DNA of 64,000 nt from the IMG/VR virus record IMGVR_UViG_3300032235_000647, positions 66,195-130,194 of that record. One strand, written 5' to 3'. Source of the stretch: a virus. This document shows positions 1-18,770 of this stretch, piece after piece. The stretch's first letter is position 1. Each line of letters begins with the position of its first letter. Below the pieces are notes generated by a model, which was given only the letters and a program-made list of their open reading frames with translations, did no database searches and was not told the DNA's origin. The position numbers and the translations under genes are program-made.

Positions 1-95
1 TGAGCCTTAGGGTCTTTTTCCTTACCTTTTTCTTTATATTTACCATACCCAACGTGAGTATATTCGGCCTCTAAAAGTAAATTTTTTAATCTCAT
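1..95 (-). CDS. Partial ORF (runs off left edge), putative head-targeted internal protein
   Basis: Not in ORF track. Translates from ATG at 95 as MRLKNLLLEAEYTHVGYGKYKEKGKEKDPKA; nearly the same module (YTHIGYGRYKEKGKEKD) occurs inside the 1829-aa ORF. Confidence 0.75.
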   Translation of the reverse strand, partial: MRLKNLLLEAEYTHVGYGKYKEKGKEKDPKA

Positions 96-898: not shown

Positions 899-2329
899 TT
901 ATCTTTTTAATTTTACAACTTTAATAGTTGGTTTTACTGCTTCGTTTACTGACTCATCAGCTGGATACTTGATACCAAATTTTGCTAGCGCTTTTCTTTT
1001 GTATTCTAACGCCTTTGCAGCTCTACTTAGATATTTTTTAAAAAATGCAAGCATCTCCTCTTTTGTATCAAATGCCTGTGACCCCCTAAACTGTGTATCA
1101 CTTAAATCAGTAGTCCAAAATGCGGCAGAACCTCTATCATAGTCATAGTATCCTACAATTTTACCATTTAATAATATTTTACCATCTTTAGCAATTAGAC
1201 TTTCGTTTACTGACTCTACTGCGTATTTGGTTTCCGATTCACCCAATTGTTTTCCAAATTCATCCCAAATCTGTAATGCTCTTTTTTGAACACCTTCTTT
1301 AGAATTACTTGCACCAACTGGAATAACTTTCTGAAGTTTACCACGAACTACAAACCCACCATACATGGTCTCACCCTTTGTAGTTTTGACTACTACTATT
1401 TGAATACCTTGTTCATTTTTAAGTTTACTTACAACTTTAATAGTTGGCTTTGATGCTTCGTTTACTGATTTACTTTCAGCCATACCATTATAAGTTAATA
1501 GTTTTTTATGTTTTTTAGCAAACATGGAAACTATTTTTAATACTTCGGCTTCACTCTTAATATATCTCTTTTCCTCAATGGTATCATTTTGTGTTCTTTG
1601 AACTAACACATGATATGTTCCTTCAATTTTTTTATCGCCATCAACATATCCAGGTCCTCTTCTTACTTCTATAAGATTTGAATATAAAGGACTATCACCA
1701 TGCATAGGATGGGGTAATATAAAGTAGTATTTTTCTTCTCCTATAAATCTACCACCTAATGGGGAATGGCCTACTTTAAGTTTATTAATACCCAATTCTT
1801 TTTTAATAATTACTTCTATTTTTTTAGCAAGATTTGATGGGAAATGTTCGGTTGCTTCGTTTACACCCCCTACTTCGGATTTTCCTTCCGATACATCCCA
1901 TTGTTTTTTAGTCATTATACTATGTCCACCAGGACTTTTCATGACCCATGCTTTTGCTTCACTACCTGATTTAAATGTTTTGACCAATTTTGGGCCTTTT
2001 GGAGTTTTTTCAATCCCAACCCATGCCCCAGATGCCATTGCTTCGTTTGTTTTACCAGCTCTTAATGCAGCTAAATCAGATGCCTCAATCTCACCATCAC
2101 CATCAACATCTAATTTGTGTTGATTGCCAGTCAATTCTTCGTTCTTTTCACCCTTAGCATCCCAAGCGGCATCAATTTTGTTAAAGAAAGCCTTTTTTTC
2201 TTCATCACTCATATCAGGAATAGACTTTCCAGCCTTTTCTAATGCTCTTTTAAAGAACTCTTGATACTCTGATTCATCTATCATTACTTCTCTTACGATA
2301 CCTTTGAATTGTTCTTTTGTTATTTTCAT
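899..2329 (-). CDS. Modular internal head/core protein with (S)VNE-separated cassettes
   Basis: 476 aa; linkers KTNEA, GVNEA, SVNEA, SVNES, SVNEA; EF-hand-like LDVDGDGEIEASDL motif; immediately upstream of the protease. Confidence 0.7.
   Translation of the reverse strand: MKITKEQFKGIVREVMIDESEYQEFFKRALEKAGKSIPDMSDEEKKAFFNKIDAAWDAKGEKNEELTGNQHKLDVDGDGEIEASDLAALRAGKTNEAMASGAWVGIEKTPKGPKLVKTFKSGSEAKAWVMKSPGGHSIMTKKQWDVSEGKSEVGGVNEATEHFPSNLAKKIEVIIKKELGINKLKVGHSPLGGRFIGEEKYYFILPHPMHGDSPLYSNLIEVRRGPGYVDGDKKIEGTYHVLVQRTQNDTIEEKRYIKSEAEVLKIVSMFAKKHKKLLTYNGMAESKSVNEASKPTIKVVSKLKNEQGIQIVVVKTTKGETMYGGFVVRGKLQKVIPVGASNSKEGVQKRALQIWDEFGKQLGESETKYAVESVNESLIAKDGKILLNGKIVGYYDYDRGSAAFWTTDLSDTQFRGSQAFDTKEEMLAFFKKYLSRAAKALEYKRKALAKFGIKYPADESVNEAVKPTIKVVKLKR
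913..1468. repeat. 40-bp direct repeat (913-952 and 1429-1468), 37/40 identical
   Basis: ttacaactttaatagttgg(ttttac/ctttga)tgcttcgtttactga; encodes SVNEA(S/V)KPTIKVV twice. Confidence 0.9.
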
Positions 2330-8460: not shown

Positions 8461-9117
8461 CTATAAATAGTGTTCTAATTTGTGTTCTTTTATAACCTCG
8501 AAAGCTTCATTTCGTTTTTCTACAACTTCTTTTAATTCAATTTCACCATTATCAATAATTTCTTGAATTTCAATCTTTACTTCATCGATTGGTTTTGGTA
8601 AACTCCATTTTTCAACCGTTCCATCTTCATTAATAAATTCATAATAAGGTTTTAATTCAGTTAATGAGTGTTTTAATTCTTCTAATTTCATTTTACCTTC
8701 TACAATCATACGAGTGTAAATTCGAAAATCTTCATATTCTTTCCAAATTCCAGCCCCTCTGAAATTATGTTCGATATCTGCCAAACAATTAATACAATAT
8801 CCAGTTTTTTGTATTAATTTTTCATCATTTTTAGTTTTTTTAATCTTTTTACAACTTGGATTACTACATTCCTTTTTAAGATTTAAATAATTACGAATTT
8901 CTTGTAAGGCTTCGTGATTTTTTCCAGTTTTAATGGTATAACCTTCCTTTTTTTCGTATCTGTAAAATTCATCCTCCCAAATATCACCAACATTTCGTTG
9001 TTCTTCGGTTTTTGTCCAACCAATTTGAGTATTATTATCATACTCACCAGTTTGAATCATATCTACCAACTTTCTACGAGTTGGGTGCATATATTTTCGT
9101 TGAAATTCTTTACTCAT
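8461..9117 (-). CDS. Hypothetical protein with Cys cluster
   Basis: 218 aa; CSNPSC...CINC putative Zn site. Confidence 0.7.
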   Translation of the reverse strand: MSKEFQRKYMHPTRRKLVDMIQTGEYDNNTQIGWTKTEEQRNVGDIWEDEFYRYEKKEGYTIKTGKNHEALQEIRNYLNLKKECSNPSCKKIKKTKNDEKLIQKTGYCINCLADIEHNFRGAGIWKEYEDFRIYTRMIVEGKMKLEELKHSLTELKPYYEFINEDGTVEKWSLPKPIDEVKIEIQEIIDNGEIELKEVVEKRNEAFEVIKEHKLEHYL

Positions 9118-9175: not shown

Positions 9176-12100
9176 TTAAGCGTAAAATATACCTAAAATC
9201 TGATTTAATGAGGCAAATGCACCAGTTAATTTGAAAGTTTTACCTTGATATGTAAAAACTATACCTTCGTTTGGAACAATTTTATCAGCCCCACCGATTG
9301 CTTGTAATCTTCTCAACTCTAATTTCAATTTTTCAATCTTTTTAGGGTCTCCTGATTTCTCAACTTCCTTAATTGTTTGGTCTAATCTCTTTTTCATGTC
9401 TCGAATTGCTGCATCAGGGTTTACAGTCAATACTGATGATGTGAATTGTAGAACTTCTGCTCCAACTCCCAAGAAAATATCCTCAAATTTCATTAGGTTT
9501 TGTTTTGTGATTTTAGCTTGGTCTTCTTTATCAGTTGTTAATGCCCAATTTAACACTTTTTCATCAGTTATGTTCTTACTATCAATTCGAAACCCTTTGT
9601 CACCAAATGCCCATCTCTTGACCAATCCCATTTTGGTTTTATTATCCAACATTGATGGTGATTTTTTGTTAATATAATCATTCCACCATGCTTGATGATA
9701 CTCAGCAACACCATCAGTATCTTTCAAACCGAATTCTTTTTGTAATTTTGAGATTTTAGCAGTATATTTTCCTTTTTTAGATGAAAGGTCTTGTGATTTT
9801 GGTAAAAAAAGAACAGGAGGTCCTTGAATTGTGTAATTATCTTGAACATCTTTGTTTATTTGTTTAATCATACCCGCAAGGATTTTTGCTGCTCCTTGAT
9901 TTTCACCTATTGCATTACCTTCATCATCATATTCCATCGTTCCATGGAACACTAATAGTGGTTGTCCGTAAGGAATTACATTGACTGATGTTGGATATAT
10001 CACTTCAAGATTCATAAAACAAGCACCATCCTTAAAAATTTTAAATCGTTGGGCTTCTGAAAGTGATTTTATAGCATCGGTGAGGTCTTTCATTGCAAAA
10101 TTATACGCTTTTTCCAATTCACCTCTGCCAGTAAACTTATCTGCCACACCTTTTATGTCTAAAGCACCAGCACCTTTGTTTTTCAAGTGTCCTTTATTAC
10201 GAGCGGCAACTAATCTTCCACCTACCCATGAGATTGCAAGGGCTTGACCATCAGTTTTTTCTCGTGCAAGTTCTAAATTTCCATCCAATGCACGATTAAC
10301 AATATCTTTTAGTTGTCCAAAAGTTAAATTGATTTCGGTATCAAATGGATGATTCATGTGTCCATACGCACCACCTTCTTTTAAAAGGGATTCTTTAACG
10401 GATTGGTATTTTTTATTCCATACATATTGGAATAACTCACCCCATATAGGTCCATCAATTTTACCATCCCACTCGTAATTATATATAGGTTTACTATTAA
10501 ATGATTTGCCAGTTTTATTAAGAGCAGTTCTTCCCAACCCTTTTACATTAGTAGATTTTGGTTTTACTAATTTTTTACCACCCCAAGTTTTTTCGAGTCG
10601 TTTCTCATCTTTGTAATGTAAAAATAACTGATAACCTCTATTTACATCTTTAACCTTATCCACAATTTTCTGCATGAAATCTTCTACTTTTGGATATTTT
10701 TTTAAAAATGCTTCAACTCTTCTTGGGTCTATATATCTAGCAACTTCTTCTTTTAATTCATAAGTTTTTTTATGAATAGTATCAAGTTGTTTTCTCAACT
10801 TTTTCATTTCCTTCTCATGATTATCCATCCACGCTTGGTCAGGATATCCATGAGGTGCTAATTCATCTATTTTTTTATTTATTTTTCTGAATTTATCCAA
10901 TTCTATTTCACGAAGTTGTTTTAATGCTTCCTCATAAGTTTCATGGGTACCTAATTTTTCACCACCAGTTTTACGATATACCACCCACTTATTATCTACT
11001 TTTTGAATTGTTTCTTCTATCTTTTTAAGTTTCGTATAATATTTTGGGTCTTCAAATAGGTGGTCCATTGCTATTTCTTTTGCAATATCAGTATCAGTAG
11101 TATGTTCCCTTTCTACTTTATACCCCTTTTTGAATTCATCCATCAATTCTGAAACTGGGATATTGTGTTTTTTAGCAATATCAGATAAACTCATACCTTG
11201 TGATAATCCACCTGGTATTTTAGATTCCTTTTTAATTGATTTCGTACTATTCATAAATTCTTGTGGTGATTTAAAATGAGCTTTTAATATACGATTGTAT
11301 TTAGATGTTTTGTTTCCATCACCATGTACCATTAGAGGTATTCCTTGGTCTACTGCTCTTCCTAATTCAAATTTTGATGGAACTTCGTGAACTAATTCAA
11401 AACCAGGTAGGCTTCCTAAATAATATTCTTGGGTATCGTACTCTTCCCAAGAATGATTGTACATATAGCCAGTAGCTCCTGCAGCATCGTTAGGAGTCAT
11501 TGAACCCCTGACCCCATCATAAAAACCACTATTGACTTCATCTATTAAATTTTCCGATTCAAAGGATAGAATAGGATCAGATGATTTAAAATCATCCTTT
11601 CGCATCACCGTTTTTGCAATGGCCTGATTTGCTTGTTTAACAAAAGGAATGTTTATATCATATCTTTTATCTCTAACAACTATTTCTTTATATTTCTCTA
11701 AAAATTCTTTAAATTTATTTTTTATTCTTGATAATCTTTTAAAGAATCCTGTTAATTCAGCATCAGAAATCGGTTTACCATTTCTTGGATCATTTACTCT
11801 ATCAAAGAAATGTTGAGTAAACTCAATATCTTGTGGTGATAATTGTTTTTCTGCATATCTCTCAACACCTCTTAATTGAGACATACTCATTTCATTTGTT
11901 GGAGTATCAAAAGTTAAATTACTTGGATATTGGTTAACCGATTTGAATCTATCTGCTTCCTTTTGCTTTAATGCAGGAAGGAATCTAAATTTGGCAAGTT
12001 TAACAATTTTTCTTTTCTTTTTTTGAACCATTTGAGATACTCTAGTCTTTTGTGGTAAAGAGAGTTCATTATAAGGAGTCATTCCAAATAATCGTTGAGT

Positions 12101-14665
12101 CCATTCTTTCCTTACATACAAGTAAGCAAGTTTGTATGCTCTTTTATATAAAACTGAATATGGTTTTTTACGAATTTGTGTTCGTTGTTTTTTAATGTTG
12201 ATTAGTTTTTTATTTTTTGCAAAACTCCATCTCCTTGCAGCTCTTTGTGCTTGAGTTAAAGCCTCATCCAAACTTTCTTCATCTTCCCACTCTTCTAATT
12301 CTGCAAAATCATACTCTTGTTGCTGAGAATCCCAACCACAAGTGTGACATAAATATGGATGTTCATCTTTTACTTCAAGTTCCCATTCATGTTCACATAT
12401 TTCACATTTAATAGAAGTTCCAGCAATGGATTCCATCATAATTGGATCAGAACCCATCCACTCATTTTTCATCATATTGTCTACTAACTCAACATGAGAT
12501 TCACCAGCTAATACAATAGGAATTTTACCTTGTGAAGATAATTCTTTTGTTTTTCTTAACAAATTTACATCTCTGAATTTATTAAAAGATTCTTGTGCAG
12601 CATGTATTTTTGTTTTCTTATCACCATAATCATCTGCAAAAGATAATCTATATAGAGTATCAACATCTTCTTCAGTTGGATTTGAATCCCATGTATTCGA
12701 TAAAGGTAGATTTGCTTCTTGTGCTGATTGTTTTAAAAGTTCTTTACCTTTATCGGTTAAGTAATCTTCAGGTGACATATCTTCTACACTATCACCTTGT
12801 CCTATCATACTTGCCCAATTGGCAGCCATGACTTCTTCATTACTTAATCCAGTTTCTTGTTCTTGGTATTTGTATAGTGGAGATTCATTATCAAATACAC
12901 TTGTCTCGTCACCATCCCATGTATCAATTCCTGCACCAATTTTTTGGAATTTCTTTGCAGCATAATCCATTTCGCCACCAAATTCCAACTCACCCTCATC
13001 ATTACCCATTCCACCTTCACCTACAAACACAACGTCTTTCCATCTATCTTGTGGTATAGTTGATTTTACTTTATCAAGTATATCATCAACCATTTTTTTA
13101 TTTCCATGAACGGTTCCAAATACTTGCCCACCACCTTCAAGTTCGGTTGTTTGAATTTCCTTACCTGATTTAGCTCCTTGAAATGTATTTACACCTGATT
13201 TAGGTTGTTGTTTTTTAGCAGGATCACTTGATGGTAGTGAATCCTTATATCCACTATCTTTTGAAAAAATATTTTGTTTTGGTTTATTTTCAGGTGTAGA
13301 ATCACCACTCTCTATTGGAGTGTATTTACCACTATCATCTTTTTTAAAAATAGGAGCAGAAGAATCTTTTTCTTTACCTTTTTCCTTATATCTACCATAC
13401 CCAATATGGGTATATTTTTCATCTTCTTTATCGGCCTCAAAGAAAACTTGCTTTCCTTCCTTAACCAATCTGAATGTGACAACTTTTTTGCCATTTATAG
13501 TTGGCATCCCGTGTTCGTCTTTACCGATTGTTTTTACAACTACTTTTTTATTTTTGAATTTACCCATCAATAGAGTATCTCCAATTTCAACTGGTAACGT
13601 GATTGATTCCTTAACAACCTTTTTATCAGATTCTTTTGAAAGTTCTCTAGCACCTTTAGCAAGTTGTGTTGAAAGTTTATCATCAACATTTAATGCTTTA
13701 TCAACTACTGAATAACCAACTAATGATGCAGTACGAGTCACGTGTTTATACCACTTATCATAAGCACCATTTACCATTACATCAAATTCACCCATTGGGT
13801 CTTTTTTACCAATAGCACCTCTTGGAAAAAATGTAACTCTACCACTTGGTCCTTCTGGGTATGTAATATAATCATCCATTGAATCATCCATAACCATATT
13901 GATTATTTCCCATCCAATTTGTTGAGCTCTTTCGCCGTTGATGACTTTAAACGAATTATAGTCCGGTAAGAAAATAACAGGACCATCATCAACCATATCT
14001 TGGCCAAATCCAGATGATACTTCTATGAGTAAATCTTCAAGTTGTGTTTTAGATAATCTGATACAAGATTCTTGTAACTTATTTGTAATAAGGTTGAATA
14101 TTGTTTTGTTGAATTTAGAATATGCTCTATCTACAAAAAAGTTCTTTTTTTGTTCTTCACTTCCACTTCCCAATCCAATTCTTACTTCGGTTCCACTTAC
14201 TCCTCCGCCACCCTCAGGTGCCACATAAATATATCCCTTATCTTTATATCCTTCGGTTGGGTTACCATCCCACTTTGCAAAATATTTACCACCCAATCTA
14301 CTTGCATCTTTTTGGCCAACTACGGTTACAAAAGCAGTAGTTTTTTCATCAAACTTTTTTAGGATTTCGGTAGGTGCATAAGGATTCTTGACCTCGTATA
14401 TTTTGTTTGATGGAACACCAAACATCGTGGTCATAATTTGTTTTTTCTCCTTAAAATTAAATGGAGATTTTGGTTTTTCTACTTTATCAGAAGTTCCTAT
14501 AAATACATTATCTTTTCCGAACTTACTAACTAAATGTGAATAAGTTGCATAATGACCTTTATGAAAAGGTTGAAATCTACCTGCATAAATGACTACTGTC
14601 TTTTTTATGGGGGTAGATTCCTCTAATAATATTTGTTCTACTAAATATCTTGAAAGTTCGTTCAT
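9176..14665 (-). CDS. 1829-aa multi-domain protein: HxGH nucleotidyltransferase, TraB/Tiki-like, Zn ribbon, BECR-like, DUF5661-like and ligase-like domains
   Basis: YAGRFQPFHKGH; FGTVHG..GEGG..FRD..AGESHV; CEIC..CHTC; FTQHFFDR..KTVMRK; KVEREHT..AKEIAMDHL.E.P.YY; EKTDGQ..EGIVF..FKLTG. Confidence 0.75.
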   Translation of the reverse strand: MNELSRYLVEQILLEESTPIKKTVVIYAGRFQPFHKGHYATYSHLVSKFGKDNVFIGTSDKVEKPKSPFNFKEKKQIMTTMFGVPSNKIYEVKNPYAPTEILKKFDEKTTAFVTVVGQKDASRLGGKYFAKWDGNPTEGYKDKGYIYVAPEGGGGVSGTEVRIGLGSGSEEQKKNFFVDRAYSKFNKTIFNLITNKLQESCIRLSKTQLEDLLIEVSSGFGQDMVDDGPVIFLPDYNSFKVINGERAQQIGWEIINMVMDDSMDDYITYPEGPSGRVTFFPRGAIGKKDPMGEFDVMVNGAYDKWYKHVTRTASLVGYSVVDKALNVDDKLSTQLAKGARELSKESDKKVVKESITLPVEIGDTLLMGKFKNKKVVVKTIGKDEHGMPTINGKKVVTFRLVKEGKQVFFEADKEDEKYTHIGYGRYKEKGKEKDSSAPIFKKDDSGKYTPIESGDSTPENKPKQNIFSKDSGYKDSLPSSDPAKKQQPKSGVNTFQGAKSGKEIQTTELEGGGQVFGTVHGNKKMVDDILDKVKSTIPQDRWKDVVFVGEGGMGNDEGELEFGGEMDYAAKKFQKIGAGIDTWDGDETSVFDNESPLYKYQEQETGLSNEEVMAANWASMIGQGDSVEDMSPEDYLTDKGKELLKQSAQEANLPLSNTWDSNPTEEDVDTLYRLSFADDYGDKKTKIHAAQESFNKFRDVNLLRKTKELSSQGKIPIVLAGESHVELVDNMMKNEWMGSDPIMMESIAGTSIKCEICEHEWELEVKDEHPYLCHTCGWDSQQQEYDFAELEEWEDEESLDEALTQAQRAARRWSFAKNKKLINIKKQRTQIRKKPYSVLYKRAYKLAYLYVRKEWTQRLFGMTPYNELSLPQKTRVSQMVQKKKRKIVKLAKFRFLPALKQKEADRFKSVNQYPSNLTFDTPTNEMSMSQLRGVERYAEKQLSPQDIEFTQHFFDRVNDPRNGKPISDAELTGFFKRLSRIKNKFKEFLEKYKEIVVRDKRYDINIPFVKQANQAIAKTVMRKDDFKSSDPILSFESENLIDEVNSGFYDGVRGSMTPNDAAGATGYMYNHSWEEYDTQEYYLGSLPGFELVHEVPSKFELGRAVDQGIPLMVHGDGNKTSKYNRILKAHFKSPQEFMNSTKSIKKESKIPGGLSQGMSLSDIAKKHNIPVSELMDEFKKGYKVEREHTTDTDIAKEIAMDHLFEDPKYYTKLKKIEETIQKVDNKWVVYRKTGGEKLGTHETYEEALKQLREIELDKFRKINKKIDELAPHGYPDQAWMDNHEKEMKKLRKQLDTIHKKTYELKEEVARYIDPRRVEAFLKKYPKVEDFMQKIVDKVKDVNRGYQLFLHYKDEKRLEKTWGGKKLVKPKSTNVKGLGRTALNKTGKSFNSKPIYNYEWDGKIDGPIWGELFQYVWNKKYQSVKESLLKEGGAYGHMNHPFDTEINLTFGQLKDIVNRALDGNLELAREKTDGQALAISWVGGRLVAARNKGHLKNKGAGALDIKGVADKFTGRGELEKAYNFAMKDLTDAIKSLSEAQRFKIFKDGACFMNLEVIYPTSVNVIPYGQPLLVFHGTMEYDDEGNAIGENQGAAKILAGMIKQINKDVQDNYTIQGPPVLFLPKSQDLSSKKGKYTAKISKLQKEFGLKDTDGVAEYHQAWWNDYINKKSPSMLDNKTKMGLVKRWAFGDKGFRIDSKNITDEKVLNWALTTDKEDQAKITKQNLMKFEDIFLGVGAEVLQFTSSVLTVNPDAAIRDMKKRLDQTIKEVEKSGDPKKIEKLKLELRRLQAIGGADKIVPNEGIVFTYQGKTFKLTGAFASLNQILGIFYA

Positions 14666-14671
14666 AATATG

Positions 14672-14705
14672 ATATACTTCATCAGTATATAAATATGAAG
14701 TATAT
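14672..14705 (-). promoter_or_regulatory. TATTTATA motif within the spacer of an 11-bp inverted repeat
   Basis: atatacttcat (14672-14682) / atgaagtatat (14695-14705) flank the motif at 14688-14695, upstream of the 1829-aa gene. Confidence 0.65.
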
Positions 14706-16271: not shown

Positions 16272-16809
16272 AATATAATTCAGGATATTCTACTAAAATA
16301 ATTGGTCCATTTGATGATAATGCTTTTTTATATGCAGGAAGAATTTTATCAGCTGAATCCAATTTTATAATGGGAATATGTTTTAACATTGAAGAAAATT
16401 CATCAGAATAATCTGCCTTATGTTGATGGCCAGGATCCAATGGTTTATCAGAACCCTTTCCTACTCTAATGATTACATTTGGAATAAATTGACCATCTGA
16501 CATTGATTCAAGTTTATCCAAATGATTTATTAATTGGTTTGATGCACAAATAAGAAAATCCCATCTTGGATAAAATGATACTACACGATGACCTGTCATG
16601 GCCAACCCAATACTCATACCCATCTGAGTTTCCTCCATTACTGGAGTTTCAATCATTCGTTCTTTTGGTAACCCTTCAATAGTTTTACTCATTGGGTTTC
16701 CATAATATACAATTTGTTGGCCAATAAAAATTGTGGAAGGGTCTTCCATGCACAATTTCATTGATTCTGTCAATGCATCTAAATACGGTGTATATTGTGG
16801 TGAACTCAT
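16261..16809 (-). CDS. TPP-dependent enzyme, E1-beta/transketolase pyrimidine-binding domain only
   Basis: ETPVMEETQMGMSIGLAMTG, DFLICASNQLIN, GHQH; 182 aa, lacks the E1-beta C-terminal domain. Confidence 0.85.
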   Translation of the reverse strand: MSSPQYTPYLDALTESMKLCMEDPSTIFIGQQIVYYGNPMSKTIEGLPKERMIETPVMEETQMGMSIGLAMTGHRVVSFYPRWDFLICASNQLINHLDKLESMSDGQFIPNVIIRVGKGSDKPLDPGHQHKADYSDEFSSMLKHIPIIKLDSADKILPAYKKALSSNGPIILVEYPELYYEN

Positions 16810-17801
16810 TATGGTCTTGAATTTGGATTATACTGATGTTTGTTTTCTTTATACCACTCAAGTGTTTCTTTAAGTGCCTGTTTCAAATCTCTTTTAGGTT
16901 TCCAACCTGCTGTATTTATTTTCTTTGATGATAATAAACGAATCGGAATCATTGGTGCCTTATTATTTACATAAGAAATAGGATTATCATTTCCTTCTAT
17001 TTCTTTAATCCATCCCAACACTTCATTTACACTAAATCCTTCACCATACGCAACATTAAAGATATTATATGTATCGTTGTTTTCGGCAACCCAAATGAAC
17101 CCATCTGCCATATCTTCAACATGAAGTAAATCTCTAACTTCAGAGCCATCACCCCATACTGGAATTGGATTTAATCCATCAGCAACTTTACGAATATTTG
17201 CAGGAGTAACATGACATTTTTCGAAATCAAATTTATCGTTTGGTCCAAATGCATTTGAAGGTCTAACAATCAAACACTGCATTGGATTGTGAATTTGGTG
17301 TGAAAAATAATCACAAAGTAATTCACCATATCGTTTCATATTACCAACTGCTCCATAAATTGGAAAAGTTGGAGTTGCGTGAATGTTTATATCTTCGGTA
17401 CAAAACTCATCCTTCATATCAGGATAAACGGTATTAGATGAAATGAATAGAAATTTCTTTACTCCATTTCTCCAACTTTGTTCCATAAGATTTACATTCA
17501 TTTCAACATTAGGTGTTACATGAAGTAATGGATTTTCTTTTGTATCTAATGCGTTAGATGTATTTGCTGCACAATGAAATACAACATCTACATCCTTTGT
17601 AACATTTTCACAAAAAAACTTTGTCTGCAAATCACCTTGAAAATGGTGTACTGATTCCCATCCATCAAAATCACCTCTTAAATCTCTTGAAAAAGAAGTT
17701 GATCTTAAATTTCTATAACCTTTTTCCCAAAGTAATCGCAGTAAATGTGAACCAATGAATCCACTTGCACCCGTAACTAAAATAGTATCTGTTTTTTTCA
17801 T
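16809..17801 (-). CDS. NDP-sugar epimerase/reductase (GDP-fucose synthase-like extended SDR)
   Basis: TGASGFIG, RPSNAFGPNDKFD..HV.PA.I, VWGDGSEVRDLLHVED. Confidence 0.85.
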   Translation of the reverse strand: MKKTDTILVTGASGFIGSHLLRLLWEKGYRNLRSTSFSRDLRGDFDGWESVHHFQGDLQTKFFCENVTKDVDVVFHCAANTSNALDTKENPLLHVTPNVEMNVNLMEQSWRNGVKKFLFISSNTVYPDMKDEFCTEDINIHATPTFPIYGAVGNMKRYGELLCDYFSHQIHNPMQCLIVRPSNAFGPNDKFDFEKCHVTPANIRKVADGLNPIPVWGDGSEVRDLLHVEDMADGFIWVAENNDTYNIFNVAYGEGFSVNEVLGWIKEIEGNDNPISYVNNKAPMIPIRLLSSKKINTAGWKPKRDLKQALKETLEWYKENKHQYNPNSRP

Positions 17802-17804
17802 AAC

Positions 17805-18770
17805 TTATTTTTTATACTCATTTAAATAATAATCAATTGTTTGTTTTAATCCTTCTTTAAGGGATACTTGTTGAATAATACCAAATGATTCTGCTCTTTC
17901 GGTACTCATCAATCTTTTTGTATCGCCGTTTGGTTTTGTTGGGTCCCACTCAATATCCACTTTAACTCCATACATTTCTTCGTAGATTTCTACAAGAGTT
18001 TCTGCAAGTTCTTTGATTGTTACACCAGTTCCACTACCCAAATTAATTGGTTGTGTTAATTTTTGTTCGTACGCCTTAATAATTCCATCGGCAATATCAC
18101 CTGCATAGATAAAATCTCTAATAGGTGAACCATCTCCCCAACATACCAATGGATGTTCTTTTTCACCAAACAATCTTTTAATAAGTGATGCAATTACGGT
18201 TGATTCAGGTCCAAAATTATCGTGTCTACCATAAATGTTAGCAGGTCTTACAATTGACGCCTTATTCCAGTCATAAGATACTGAATAAACTTCTGCTTGT
18301 AATTCACCTAGTCTCTTTGCCCATCCAGCATATTTATCTTTTTCCGATGGGAAAGTTTTCCAAACATCATCTTCATAAAATACTTCTGCTGGTTGATAAA
18401 CTCCAACCGTTGAAGTGTATACATACCATTCAACATCTTCCAATCTTGCTGCTTCCATCATATTGGTGTTGAATTGTAACATTGGTACAAAATAATCTGC
18501 AGGTTGCTCCATTGCTCTTTTCGGAGAACCCTTTACACCTGCAATATGAAAAATTATTTCTTGTCCTTTTACAACTTGTTTACACGAATCAAATTCTCTC
18601 AAATCTGCCTTGATAAACTGATAATTACCATCTTTATACTTTTCAACTTGATTCATTGGTTCGTGGATATCCACTGCTGTTACAAGTGCACCTTTATCGA
18701 TACACTTTTGAACCATATAATTACCAACTAATCCATTGGCACCTGTTATTAAAACCTTTTTACCTTCCAT
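17805..18770 (-). CDS. NDP-sugar epimerase/reductase (GDP-fucose synthase-like extended SDR)
   Basis: TGANGLVG, RPANIYGRHDNF, WGDGSPIRDFIY, INLGSG, WDPTKPNG. Confidence 0.85.
   Translation of the reverse strand: MEGKKVLITGANGLVGNYMVQKCIDKGALVTAVDIHEPMNQVEKYKDGNYQFIKADLREFDSCKQVVKGQEIIFHIAGVKGSPKRAMEQPADYFVPMLQFNTNMMEAARLEDVEWYVYTSTVGVYQPAEVFYEDDVWKTFPSEKDKYAGWAKRLGELQAEVYSVSYDWNKASIVRPANIYGRHDNFGPESTVIASLIKRLFGEKEHPLVCWGDGSPIRDFIYAGDIADGIIKAYEQKLTQPINLGSGTGVTIKELAETLVEIYEEMYGVKVDIEWDPTKPNGDTKRLMSTERAESFGIIQQVSLKEGLKQTIDYYLNEYKK

What the first reader, a model, noticed from the sequence alone, without database searches (positions are those of the whole stretch)
9176..10380. C-terminal domain carries ligase-type nucleotidyltransferase motifs
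Seen: REKTDGQ (motif I KxDG), VAARN (Ia), NLEVIY (III), LVFHG (IIIa), NEGIVF (IV) and FKLTG (V) in the expected order. Established: these define the covalent Lys-AMP RNA/DNA ligase and capping superfamily. Inference: an RNA repair or AMP-transfer enzyme on the same chain as a NadM-like GRFQPFHKGH adenylyltransferase, perhaps countering tRNA cleavage or NAD depletion.
Basis: partly seen in the sequence, partly recalled or inferred. Interest (0 to 1): 0.7.

Follow-up and report, generated by a model that had tools for sequence, protein, structure and literature searches.

The report
Ligase-like enzyme ending a phage polyprotein
The last 400 residues of a giant phage protein are a previously unmodelled enzyme with the fold and catalytic residues of RNA ligases, probably one of several enzymes that the phage loads into its head and injects to protect its infection.

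Summary
Observation confirmed. Window 9176-14665 (minus strand) is one 1829-residue ORF. Its last 399 residues carry all six motifs at the stated places. These hold 13 of the 25 invariant columns of a 33-sequence family alignment (P about 2e-9). The motif I lysine is kept in 145 of 150 family representatives.

An AlphaFold model (pLDDT 91) matches only ligases. All 50 rows of the second-look structural ranking are ligases, with RNA ligases on top (Z 7.5-9.2) and DNA ligases lower. No Pfam, PHROG or PDB sequence model recognises the domain.

Three features are unusual: a conserved GGxxGHxxHPFD start, a roughly 200-residue helical insert between motifs IIIa and IV, and a single lysine in motif V.

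The domain ends 145 of 150 representatives, which are 277-1930 residues long. Most begin with the same NMNAT-like HxGH enzyme. The gene always lies just upstream of the terminase and portal genes. A conserved (L/I)-x-E precedes the domain, and T4-style leaders are enriched in this phage's head gene cluster.

I read it as a head-packaged, protease-released cargo enzyme, most likely an RNA end-joiner. Substrate and packaging are inferred. This scan reported the same family earlier on other DNA.

The parts
9176..14665 (-). Whole ORF, 1829 aa (P0001): modular polyprotein
   Evidence: module map from BLAST coverage against 266 family proteins
14672..14705 (-). Hairpin just upstream of the start codon. 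It has an 11-bp perfect stem. Its 12-nt loop holds the recurrent intergenic motif CATATTTATATAC (14685-14697), a candidate promoter.
   Evidence: 18 matches against 8.75 expected, 0 of 100 shuffles reach 18; dG -9.4 kcal/mol, z -2.64
14618..14665 (-). N-terminal leader MNELSRYLVEQILLEE (residues 1-16) with LVE and LLE sites. Candidate capsid-targeting and propeptide segment.
   Evidence: The same leader type heads polyproteins in related loci listed. Leader pattern enriched in head-cluster ORFs (Fisher P 8e-5).
14051..14611 (-). HxGH (HIGH-type) nucleotidyltransferase, NMNAT-like, residues about 19-205. GRFQPFHKGH at 29-38; a VSGTEVR second signature is read directly from the sequence.
   Evidence: Pfam CTP_transf_like 26.5 bits against cut-off 21; phrog_395 and phrog_3041; PDB NadM 2qjt E 1e-5; NCBIfam NadM models far below cut-off
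13436..14050 (-). Module 2, residues about 206-410, unknown function. Shared with about 40-65 of 266 family proteins.
13259..13453 (-). Basic YTHIGYGRYKEKGKEKD module, residues 405-469. It also occurs twice in the neighbouring 929-aa head-cluster ORF.
   Evidence: BLASTP 59% and 51% identity
12332..12406 (-). CxxC...CxxC zinc-ribbon-like motif, residues 754-778
   Evidence: read from the sequence only
11567..11887 (-). phrog_23027-like module, residues 927-1033, unknown function
   Evidence: E 3.6e-15
11012..11182 (-). DUF5661 module, residues 1162-1218
   Evidence: E 3e-15; present in 8 of 45 representatives
10376..10405 (-). Junction QSVKESLLKE (residues 1421-1430) with two h-x-E sites (VKE, LKE) directly before GGAYGHM. 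Candidate prohead-protease cleavage site.
   Evidence: E at -1 in 208/240 family proteins, L or I at -3 in 232, E at -6 in 130. Residues 1-19 of the model are disordered.
9179..10375 (-). Ligase-like covalent nucleotidyltransferase domain, residues 1431-1829
   Evidence: Model pLDDT 91.4; fold searches; conservation
10244..10264 (-). Motif I REKTDGQ. K1470 is the predicted AMP-accepting lysine.
   Evidence: K 145/150
9281..9892 (-). Helical insert between motifs IIIa and IV, residues about 1592-1795
   Evidence: helices 178-381 of the domain
9221..9271 (-). Motif IV NEGIVF and motif V FKLTG (single lysine), 14 residues from the C-terminus
8461..9117 (-). 218-aa downstream gene, always linked to the ligase-domain gene. 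Function unknown; Cys-rich.
   Evidence: a homolog starts about 40-150 nt after the ligase gene in the 40 loci printed. It lies downstream on the same strand in 67 of 67 loci that have at least 3.5 kb downstream. No PHROG hit.

Best explanation
Residues 1431-1829 form an active enzyme of the covalent lysine-nucleotidyltransferase (ligase/capping) superfamily. It is closest in fold to ATP-dependent RNA ligases but belongs to a family that no Pfam, PHROG or NCBIfam model searched here describes.

Proposed mechanism:
1. K1470 takes AMP from ATP.
2. The AMP passes to a 5'-phosphate end.
3. A 3'-OH attacks and seals the break.

The helical insert, and possibly the GGxxGHxxHPFD start, would stand in for the missing OB or C-terminal substrate-binding domains.

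The enzyme is made late as the fixed C-terminal module of a variable polyprotein. That polyprotein starts with a T4-like targeting leader and an NMNAT-like enzyme. I propose that it is carried into the prohead and cut at (L/I)-x-E sites by the phage's head protease, which would free a ligase beginning with Gly-Gly. The pieces would then be injected with the DNA, so that broken host or phage RNA (most plausibly tRNAs cut by defence nucleases) can be rejoined from the first minutes of infection.

Shown here: motifs, their conservation, the fold, the architecture, synteny and leader enrichment. Inferred: catalysis, RNA as substrate, packaging, cleavage and biological role. The confidence of 0.5 is for the whole chain of claims. 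Taken separately I put an active ligase-superfamily enzyme at about 0.85, RNA as substrate at about 0.55, and packaging with cleavage at about 0.5.
For: Fold:
- Model pLDDT 91.4, pTM 0.87.
- VIA-align against 48,161 chains: the top 10 are all ligases. NgrRnl 5cot Z 8.8 (189 aligned, rmsd 4.1), REL1 8.6, Trl1 8.4, Rnl2 8.0, Rnl1 7.9. DNA ligases score 5.5-7.5 and capping enzymes 5.2.
- pdb_via: all 50 rows are ligases, with RNA ligases at ranks 1-26.
- Foldseek pdb: the top 14 listed rows are RNA ligases or a putative ligase, at E 0.0045-0.023.
- BFVD: after family members come viral RNA ligases.

Catalytic set: see the counts and P 1.8e-9.

Architecture:
- The domain ends within 10 aa of the C-terminus in 145/150 representatives. 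127/150 have more than 100 aa in front of it.
- The NMNAT-like domain is in the same ORF in 43 of 51 loci with a complete ORF. Pfam CTP_transf_like is found in 27 of 45 long representatives.

RNA theme among co-fused modules (of 45): CCA-adding type PolyA_pol 3, P-loop kinase AAA_33/Zeta 2, HD 2.

Late/head context:
- TerL and the 218-aa gene lie downstream in 67/67 loci, and portal in 66/67.
- This genome has a head maturation protease (phrog_207, E 1.3e-50) and a major head protein (phrog_138, E 1e-72).

Processing signals:
- E at -1 in 208/240 and L/I at -3 in 232, in a segment the model leaves disordered.
- Stand-alone forms keep a 15-residue leader of the type MIRLxKILNEVLLKE (33 of 59 short-leader forms).
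- The leader pattern occurs in 16 of 122 ORFs against 6.4 +/- 2.3 in shuffles, and in 9 of 20 head-cluster ORFs against 7 of 102 elsewhere (P 8e-5).

Precedent:
- T4 internal proteins share only a capsid-targeting sequence, and gp21 removes their propeptides (passages read in PMC3012670 and PMC5694885).
- A cyanophage 'cytidylyltransferase' was detected in purified virions (PMC9146016, passages and table). Its N-terminus is 28% identical to this NMNAT-like domain (E 2e-6).
Against: - The case rests on Z plus motif coincidence plus the uniformity of the hit list.
- No sequence model of any ligase family matches. Pfam at E up to 10 gives nothing for the window's domain. Among 33 family members there is one weak RNA_ligase hit (E 0.037) and two weak DNA_ligase_aden hits (best E 0.034).
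- Motif V has one lysine instead of two, and no OB or Rnl1/Rnl2-type C-terminal domain is present.
- Nothing here separates RNA from DNA ends except the fold ranking.
- h-x-E sites are not enriched in the protein as a whole: 30 observed against 30.5 expected. Their coincidence with module borders is not statistically secure.
- No healing enzyme (kinase, phosphatase, cyclic phosphodiesterase) was recognised in this particular polyprotein.
- The RNA-related co-modules are each found in only 2-3 of 45 relatives.
- The virion proteomics concern a distant homolog of the N-terminal module only. The ligase profile found nothing in that phage.
Confidence: 0.5

Rival explanations
1. It is the phage's DNA ligase. 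It would seal nicks in replicating, recombining or freshly injected phage DNA rather than RNA.
For: - It has the same superfamily fold, and DNA ligases also match (Pmar-Lig Z 7.4-7.5, ASFV ligase 6.7-7.2).
- No canonical ligase (PF01068, PF01653, PF09414, PF09511) was found in the 130-kb record that holds the window.
- Of 4 large relatives, 3 of them at least 95% complete, only 1 has PF01068 and none has PF01653.
Against: - RNA ligases outrank DNA ligases by more than 1 Z unit and fill ranks 1-26.
- There is no OB domain.
- The gene sits in the late head cluster behind a leader, not among the replication genes.
- One relative (G002) carries a canonical DNA ligase, an Rnl2-type RNA ligase and this domain together, so this domain is not a simple substitute.
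- The window's record is only 65% complete, so absence of a canonical ligase is weak evidence.
Confidence: 0.15
2. The ligase-fold module and the NMNAT-like module work as a pair on a nucleotide-linked chemistry other than plain ATP-dependent sealing. Examples: NAD+ as the AMP donor, with NAD+ regenerated on the same chain, or 5'-end adenylylation or NAD-type capping of RNA without sealing.
For: - The two modules bracket the chain in 43 of 51 complete ORFs.
- They make up the whole 639-aa protein of phage Mel-JY01.
- Motif V departs from the K-x-K form I recall for characterised ligases; here it is K-x-T.
- A 2021 review states that no post-transcriptional NAD-capping enzyme is known and proposes NMNATs and RNA ligases as candidates (PMC8131947, passages read).
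Against: - No evidence for NAD binding. There is no LigA-type Ia domain.
- Stand-alone ligase genes with their own leader exist (5 of 51 complete ORFs are 399-414 aa; 59 of 240 have a short leader).
- If the modules are cut apart, the fusion would reflect shared delivery rather than shared chemistry.
- The same review reports that E. coli NadD and NadR showed no capping activity.
Confidence: 0.1
3. It is an active ligase-like enzyme that stays in the cytoplasm late in infection and is neither packaged nor cleaved. The conserved LLxE-GG and the N-terminal leaders would serve folding, interaction or translation instead.
For: - No proteomic or cleavage data exist for this family.
- h-x-E sites are not enriched overall.
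- The conserved junction could be a structural element that AlphaFold fails to place.
Against: - The junction motif is kept whatever lies upstream: 153 of 181 fused and 54 of 59 short-leader forms.
- Leader-bearing ORFs cluster with portal, protease, scaffold-position and capsid genes.
- The neighbouring 929-aa ORF shows the same leader and a shared module preceded by LLLE or ILKE.
Confidence: 0.2
4. It is a catalytically dead ligase-fold domain used as a structural or nucleic-acid-binding part of the head or packaging machinery.
For: It sits next to the terminase genes in every locus examined. It lacks the second motif V lysine.
Against: Near-total conservation of the nucleotidyl-transfer residues across 150 representatives of 50%-identity clusters is what selection on catalysis predicts.
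Confidence: 0.03

Closest known systems
ATP-dependent RNA ligases: Naegleria NgrRnl (Rnl5; 5cot, 6vt3), Trypanosoma REL1 and T4 Rnl2 (Rnl2), T4 Rnl1 and fungal Trl1-LIG (Rnl1)
   Same: - Nucleotidyltransferase core fold: Z 7.9-9.2 over 184-208 aligned residues.
- Motifs I, Ia, III, IIIa, IV and V occur in the same order, with K, R, E, E-G and K conserved.
- As in the NgrRnl match, whose aligned range runs to the end of the chain (residues 143-339 of about 340), the core ends at the C-terminus.
   Different: - No sequence model of these families matches.
- The Rnl1, Rnl2 and Rnl5 groups tie within 1 Z unit, so no family can be assigned.
- A helical insert of about 200 residues lies between motifs IIIa and IV, in place of a separate N- or C-terminal domain.
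- Motif V is K-x-T-G.
- The domain has a GGxxGHxxHPFD opening segment.
- It is a module of a polyprotein behind a protease-type site.
Pfam DUF6267 (PF19782). The instance examined here is SSZBM1_141 of the T4-like cyanophage S-SZBM1.
   Same: - Read by eye, the same order of invariant motifs: HxxHxxD, KxDG, a basic motif about 20 residues later, an acidic hhY motif, VFH(T/G), a long helical stretch, PEG(F/I)V, then K-L-(V/T) with a single lysine.
- Similar length (397 aa).
- Encoded next to a 'cytidylyltransferase' gene.
- The nearest ESM Atlas cluster to the window's domain has PF19782 on 24% of its members.
   Different: - Homology was not demonstrated here.
- The PF19782 model does not hit the window's genome, or Mel-JY01's genome, which holds a 38%-identical family member. 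At E up to 1 it does not appear among the 25 families shown for the 33 family members.
- hhalign between the two family alignments gives probability 0.2.
- My DUF6267 model was mediocre (pLDDT 72, motif IV-V region under 50) and gave no significant ligase match.
- Gene order is reversed: the ligase-like gene lies upstream of the transferase gene in S-SZBM1.
T4 internal proteins IPI-III and Alt (capsid-targeting sequence, gp21 processing, ejection with the DNA)
   Same: - A short N-terminal leader ending in hydrophobic-x-Glu.
- Location in the head gene cluster with a head maturation protease.
- Variable cargo behind a conserved tag (T4 facts from passages of PMC3012670 and PMC5694885).
- The (L/I)-x-E rule for gp21 is recalled, not read here.
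   Different: The cargo is a chain of up to about ten modules rather than one small protein. The candidate cuts are internal as well as N-terminal. No experiment has been done on this phage group.
Polyvalent proteins of phages and conjugative elements (Iyer et al. 2017, PMC5512222)
   Same: - Many unrelated enzymatic domains on one chain, encoded beside virion genes and predicted to be injected (abstract and passages read).
- Relatives carry a SprT-like domain (1 of 45).
- The neighbouring 929-aa ORF has a DGHHRW string that I read as ParB-like; this was not tested.
   Different: In the passages read, that paper reports never seeing RNA ligases associated with the 2H domains of polyvalent proteins. 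The terms ligase and cytidylyltransferase gave no mention of a ligase-fold or HxGH module. Its supplementary tables were not seen.
T4 Pnkp plus Rnl1 'heal and seal' of tRNA cut by the PrrC anticodon nuclease
   Same: A phage-encoded ligase-fold enzyme. In some relatives it shares a chain with end-healing type modules: P-loop kinase 2/45, HD 2/45, CCA-adding 3/45.
   Different: - T4's enzymes are separate cytoplasmic proteins (recalled).
- No kinase or phosphatase module was recognised in this window's protein.
- No tRNA gene lies in the window.
- The link to tRNA repair is inference.
Phage NadM-type NMN adenylyltransferases (NAD+ salvage against NADase defences)
   Same: - HxGH motif GRFQPFHKGH and a second SGTxxR signature.
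- Best PDB sequence hits are NadM and archaeal NMNATs.
- The nearest cultured-phage hits beyond two close relatives are mostly annotated as NadM-type or as cytidyltransferase.
   Different: - Similarity covers mainly the first 60-140 residues at 24-40% identity.
- Scores are far below the NadM equivalog cut-offs.
- No Nudix domain was detected. Whether a NadV partner exists was not examined.
- The substrate is unknown.

Membership tests
Covalent nucleotidyltransferase superfamily (ATP/NAD ligases, capping enzymes) | Motif I KxDG with the nucleotide-accepting lysine | tested here: met
   EKTDGQ at residues 1469-1474. K in 145/150, D in 146/150 and G in 146/150 representatives.
Covalent nucleotidyltransferase superfamily (ATP/NAD ligases, capping enzymes) | Motifs Ia, III, IIIa, IV and V in order, with conserved R, E, aromatic, E-G and K-x-K | tested here: inconclusive
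   Order and R75, E140, F159/H160, E386-G387 and K398 are conserved. Motif V is K-x-T, lacking one lysine (T in 144/150).
Covalent nucleotidyltransferase superfamily (ATP/NAD ligases, capping enzymes) | Nucleotidyltransferase core fold | tested here: met
   Model pLDDT 91.4. The top 10 of 48,161 chains are all ligases, Z 7.2-8.8. All 50 pdb_via rows are ligases. Foldseek E-values are only 0.0045 and weaker.
Covalent nucleotidyltransferase superfamily (ATP/NAD ligases, capping enzymes) | [quoted passage not shown] | not testable with these tools
   Needs a labelling assay with a K1470 mutant.
Rnl1 family (T4 Rnl1, Trl1-LIG; PF09511) | Match to the family sequence model | tested here: not met
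   No Pfam hit at E up to 10 for the domain. PF09511 found nothing in the record that holds the window, though that search's controls did not ring.
Rnl1 family (T4 Rnl1, Trl1-LIG; PF09511) | All-helical substrate-binding domain following motif V | tested here: not met
   The chain ends 14 residues after motif V. The helical part is inserted between motifs IIIa and IV.
Rnl2 family (T4 Rnl2, REL1; PF09414) | Match to the family sequence model | tested here: not met
   No hit for the window's domain. One of 33 family members has a sub-threshold hit at E 0.037.
Rnl5 family (NgrRnl, DraRnl) | N-terminal OB-like domain in front of a C-terminal nucleotidyltransferase domain | tested here: inconclusive
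   The core is C-terminal as in NgrRnl, where chain residues 143-339 are aligned. No folded domain precedes it within the cleavage-defined unit. Upstream modules of the polyprotein were not folded.
ATP-dependent DNA ligases (PF01068) | Family sequence model, and an OB domain with motif VI after the core | tested here: not met
   No Pfam hit. PF01068 is absent from the record. No residues remain after motif V for an OB domain.
Pfam DUF6267 (PF19782) | Match to the family model or profile-profile homology | tested here: not met
   No hit at E up to 10. Not among the 25 families shown for the 33 family members at E up to 1. hhalign probability 0.2. The only links are ESM features (24% of the nearest cluster) and motif order read by eye.
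NadM/archaeal-type NMN adenylyltransferase (N-terminal module) | H/TxGH and ISxTxxR-type signatures of the HIGH nucleotidyltransferase fold | tested here: met
   GRFQPFHKGH and VSGTEVR, read. Pfam CTP_transf_like 26.5 bits against cut-off 21.
NadM/archaeal-type NMN adenylyltransferase (N-terminal module) | Score above the curated NMNAT/NadM equivalog cut-offs; fused Nudix domain in NadM | tested here: not met
   Best 29.6 bits against a cut-off of 449. No Nudix family in the Pfam scan.
T4-type head cargo (capsid-targeting leader plus prohead-protease processing) | N-terminal leader ending in hydrophobic-x-Glu, and a T4-type head protease in the genome | tested here: met
   Leader MNELSRYLVEQILLEE. 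Pattern enriched in the head cluster, 9/20 against 7/102. Protease phrog_207 E 1.3e-50.
T4-type head cargo (capsid-targeting leader plus prohead-protease processing) | Presence in virions and cleavage at the predicted sites | not testable with these tools
   The only data are proteomics for a distant homolog of the N-terminal module in cyanophage S-SZBM1 (PMC9146016).

The most novel reading that the evidence does not exclude
The ligase-fold module and the NMNAT-like module are a functional pair. They bracket the chain in 43 of 51 complete ORFs. Delivered by the virion, they would carry out NAD+-coupled chemistry on nucleic-acid ends. That could be an RNA ligase that draws AMP from NAD+ regenerated on the spot, or a post-transcriptional NAD/ADP-type capping of 5' ends. 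By the 2021 review read here (PMC8131947), no enzyme of the latter kind has been described.
Probability: 0.07. Interest if true: 0.9.

Novelty: new variant of a known kind. Interest (0 to 1): 0.62.

Why it matters
If the reading holds, a very large and strongly conserved family of aquatic phage proteins is a new branch of the RNA-ligase superfamily with its own architecture. The family has 2028 clusters at 50% identity with E up to 0.001 and carries no functional annotation.

It would also be a case where a nucleic-acid repair enzyme is pre-loaded into the capsid and injected, rather than made after infection. That would extend the T4 internal-protein idea from small inhibitors to whole enzyme kits. 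It would also give a testable route by which phages could pre-empt tRNA-cutting and NAD-depleting defences.

The modular chain is in addition a natural catalogue of candidate counter-defence enzymes joined at recognisable seams.

Tried and rejected
- **Sequence searches of the domain.** Pfam (E up to 10), PHROGs (E up to 10) and PDB sequences found nothing relevant. The family profile against PDB sequences found no ligase, only eS6 ribosomal proteins at E 1e-4 to 2e-3 over the helical insert. I treat this as unexplained, possibly compositional.
- **Whole protein against PDB sequences.** This added nothing beyond NMNAT.
- **DUF6267 link.** The PF19782 model, hhalign with one sequence and with a 20-sequence alignment, and fold searches of a DUF6267 model all failed to establish homology. 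VIA-align gave only helical bundles. Foldseek's best row was T4 Rnl1 at E 0.16, which is not significant.
- **SSZBM1_139.** This is the other virion-detected neighbour in cyanophage S-SZBM1. It is unrelated to the ligase profile.
- **Ligase profile in S-SZBM1.** It found nothing.
- **h-x-E sites.** Global enrichment in the polyprotein is absent, 30 against 30.5 expected. The overlap of BLAST module borders with such sites is suggestive only.
- **T4 late promoter TATAAATA.** 26 matches against 16.9 expected, and 5 of 100 shuffles reach 26. Matches upstream of genes lie on the non-coding strand, so I did not call them T4-type late promoters.
- **Leader regular expressions.** The first two were too narrow. 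The third, reported one was chosen after looking at the leaders, so its shuffle control is somewhat optimistic.
- **Literature.** The held library has no paper with the terms DUF5661, DUF6267 or Mel-JY01. One paper holds both 'capsid targeting sequence' and 'RNA ligase', and it is unrelated. Supplementary files of the polyvalent-protein and proteomics papers could not be seen and might list this domain or its peptides.


Full report
**What is there.** All long ORFs in the window lie on the minus strand.

**Is it more than chance?** The C-terminal 415 residues (P0002) found 1383 proteins in the 5.8-billion-protein collection. The best 120 are 69-95% identical, and none carries a functional name. 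A profile of 18 of them found 2028 representatives of 50%-identity clusters at E up to 0.001, and 773 at E up to 1e-30.
- In a 33-sequence alignment reaching 38% identity, 25 of 415 columns are invariant.
- In the 150 listed representatives the predicted AMP-accepting lysine is K in 145. The remaining five are four gaps and one N. The motif III Glu is kept in 149, motif IV E-G in 148 and 149, and the motif V Lys in 148.
- Motif V reads K-x-T-G (T in 144), so one of the two lysines that I recall as usual in ligases is missing.
- The family also has an almost invariant GGxxGHxxHPFD opening.

**Fold.** An AlphaFold2 model built on that alignment has mean pLDDT 91.4 and pTM 0.87. Only the first 19 residues are disordered.
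- Foldseek against the PDB gives no match at E 0.001 or better. Its top 14 listed rows are RNA ligases or a putative ligase: Trl1, T4 Rnl1, archaeal Rnl3 types and the Aquifex protein, at E 0.0045-0.023.
- VIA-align against 48,161 representative chains puts ten ligases on top: NgrRnl Z 8.8 (189 residues, rmsd 4.1), REL1 8.6, Trl1 8.4, Rnl2 8.0 and Rnl1 7.9. DNA ligases score 5.5-7.5 and capping enzymes about 5.2. The other rows are helical hairpins that match the last helices.
- In the second look at Foldseek's best 1000 chains, all 50 rows shown are ligases. RNA ligases hold ranks 1-26 (Z 7.5-9.2).
- The tool's own note warns that Z of 7-8 is common for unrelated models. The fold assignment therefore rests on three things together: the Z values, the uniformity of the list, and the coincidence of invariant residues with ligase motifs.
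- About 185-205 residues align, which is the whole core once the helical insert (domain residues about 178-381) is set aside.
- Rnl1, Rnl2 and Rnl5 types tie, so no RNA-ligase family can be assigned. No sequence model of any of them matches.

**Architecture of the family.**
- The domain ends within 10 residues of the C-terminus in 145 of 150 representatives. 127 have more than 100 residues in front of it, up to 1511.
- I took every second representative of at least 600 residues, 45 of the 146 that were new. Of these, 27 carry Pfam CTP_transf_like, 8 DUF5661, 3 the CCA-adding type PolyA_pol head with its RNA-binding part, 2 a Zeta/AAA_33 P-loop kinase, 2 HD, 1 SprT-like and 1 ROS/MucR.
- Among 80 related viral contigs, 51 hold the ORF with a complete 5' end. 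It is 399-1917 residues long. In 43 of the 51 the NMNAT-like domain lies in the same ORF, directly after a conserved leader of the type MNELSxFLVEsILLE.
- The two enzymes are thus the fixed ends of a chain whose middle varies. BLAST coverage along the window's protein shows the same: residues 1-205 are shared with about 105 of 266 family proteins, and residues 1411-1829 with nearly all. The middle is shared with between 1 and 65.

**The N-terminal enzyme.**
- It passes Pfam's cytidylyltransferase-like threshold (26.5 bits against 21).
- Its best solved relatives by sequence are Francisella NadM (E 1e-5) and the archaeal NMNAT MJ0541 (E 4e-4).
- In cultured phages its nearest hits, after Mel-JY01 and one uncultured phage, are mostly annotated as NadM-type or as cytidyltransferase, at 24-40% identity over part of the domain.
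- It is far below the NadM equivalog cut-offs, and no Nudix part was detected.
- 'NMNAT-like' is a fair description. 'NMNAT' is not shown.

**Genomic setting.** The record that holds the window is a 130-kb virus contig, estimated 65% complete.
- Downstream of the polyprotein, in order, come a 218-aa gene, two small hydrophobic ORFs and the large terminase. These are followed by a 149-aa ORF, the portal and three unassigned ORFs, then a head maturation protease (phrog_207, E 1.3e-50).
- Beyond the window's edge lie a 929-aa ORF, several small ORFs, a 362-aa ORF and the major head protein (phrog_138, E 1e-72).
- In 67 of 67 related loci with at least 3.5 kb downstream, the 218-aa gene and the terminase follow on the same strand. 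The portal follows in 66.
- These loci are 67-97% identical at the ligase domain, so the synteny describes one phage lineage.
- The 38%-identical two-domain protein of Microcystis phage Mel-JY01 also lies about 2.6 kb upstream of its terminase.

**Signals of processing and delivery.** I took this lead from earlier notes of this scan and then tested it on this genome.
- In 240 family proteins with the opening motif, the residue just before it is Glu in 208. The residue at -3 is Leu or Ile in 232. A second Glu sits at -6 in 130. This holds whether a long chain (153 of 181) or only a short leader (54 of 59) precedes the motif.
- The window has QSVKE-SLLKE-GGAYGHM. The model leaves this segment disordered.
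- Stand-alone genes keep a 15-residue leader, MIRLxKILNEVLLKE (33 of the 59), which resembles the polyprotein's own start.
- Across the 122 minus-strand ORFs of the record, an N-terminal 'M, 2-12 residues, two aliphatics, x, Glu' pattern occurs in 16. Shuffles give 6.4 +/- 2.3 with a maximum of 13. It occurs in 9 of the 20 ORFs of the head cluster and in 7 of 102 elsewhere (Fisher P = 8e-5). I chose this pattern after seeing the leaders, so the control flatters it somewhat.
- The 929-aa neighbour starts MRLKNLLLE. It carries two copies of the basic module found at residues 405-469 of the polyprotein, each preceded by LLLE or ILKE.
- Against this reading, h-x-E sites are not enriched in the polyprotein as a whole (30 against 30.5 expected).
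- In T4, internal proteins share only a capsid-targeting sequence, and gp21 removes propeptides, often at several sites (passages of PMC3012670 and PMC5694885). That gp21 cuts after (L/I)-x-E is my recollection.
- One experimental hint exists. Virion proteomics of cyanophage S-SZBM1 detected a 'cytidylyltransferase' (PMC9146016, text and table). Its N-terminus is 28% identical to the window's N-terminal domain (E 2e-6).

**Most likely working.** The domain is an active lysine-adenylyltransferase that joins nucleic-acid ends, more likely RNA than DNA. It would be delivered as cargo: made late, targeted to the prohead by the leader, cut out at LLKE|GG and injected.
- The RNA preference rests on the fold ranking and on the RNA-end enzymes fused in some relatives. 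Both are indirect.
- The DNA-ligase rival stays open. No canonical ligase family was found in this record. Only 1 of 4 large relatives has an ATP-dependent DNA ligase, and none has an NAD-dependent one.
- That one relative also has an Rnl2-type ligase and still keeps this domain.

**Relation to known families.**
- The polyvalent-protein paper does not, in the passages I searched, describe a ligase-fold or HxGH module. It states that RNA ligases were never seen associated with the 2H domains of polyvalent proteins.
- The ESM Atlas places the domain next to clusters of viral hypothetical proteins, one of which has Pfam DUF6267 on 24% of its members.
- DUF6267 matches SSZBM1_141, a 397-residue protein encoded directly upstream of that phage's cytidylyltransferase gene. 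A word-filtered search with it gave 7995 proteins at E up to 1e-5 among 8000 candidates scored.
- Its invariant residues follow the same motif order when read by eye.
- I could not demonstrate homology. HMM and profile-profile comparisons fail. A mediocre DUF6267 model (pLDDT 72) gave no significant ligase match.
- Earlier notes of this scan assert that DUF6267 has the ligase fold. My test neither confirms nor refutes that.

**Verdict.** The family is undescribed in the searches I could make. This scan has, however, already reported it on other genomes. Substrate, partnership with the NMNAT-like module and virion delivery remain inferences with clear experimental tests.

Noticed in passing
window 14672-14705 (minus strand), and motif sites such as 3865, 9141, 29848, 41304, 48231, 49342, 51321, 56577, 63265: An 11-bp perfect hairpin ends 7 nt before the polyprotein's start codon. 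Its loop holds CATATTTATATAC. Variants of this motif recur in intergenic gaps upstream of many minus-strand genes (18 matches against 8.75 expected). It could be this phage's late promoter, and the hairpin could gate translation on read-through transcripts.
   Followed up: partly
record G000:C1:63500-66289 (L084:7501-10290, minus strand; overlaps window 1-95): A 929-aa head-cluster ORF with several notable features: a leader MRLKNLLLE, two copies of the YTHxGYGxYKEKGKEKD module also found in the polyprotein, a DGHHRW string that I read as ParB-like, and a very long proline-rich repeat tail. It looks like a second cargo polyprotein.
   Followed up: partly
window 899-2329 (minus strand): A 476-aa ORF between portal and protease with leader MKITKEQFKGIVREVMIDE. 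It has repeated ..SVNEA(S/V)KPTIKVV.. segments that look like repeated protease sites flanking repeated modules. No PHROG match.
   Followed up: no
window 8461-9117 (minus strand): A 218-aa Cys-rich protein follows the ligase-domain gene in 67 of 67 related loci, ahead of the large terminase. It may be the small terminase or a partner of the ligase. No PHROG match.
   Followed up: partly
domain residues about 147-293 (window about 9545-9985): The family profile matches eukaryotic ribosomal protein eS6 from seven PDB sequences (E 1e-4 to 2e-3) across the first part of the helical insert. This could be chance composition or a shared RNA-binding helical element. It is unexplained.
   Followed up: no
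window 16809-18770 (minus strand): Two tandem paralogous nucleotide-sugar epimerase genes (phrog_540, E 2.6e-58 and 3.4e-51) lie about 2 kb upstream of the polyprotein, with two ORFs in between.
   Followed up: no
L003 (Synechococcus phage S-SZBM1, OL473597.1 80389-82670): In this cultured cyanophage the DUF6267 gene (SSZBM1_141) abuts the virion-detected 'cytidylyltransferase' gene (SSZBM1_140). This is the same pairing as in the window but in the opposite order and unfused.
   Followed up: partly
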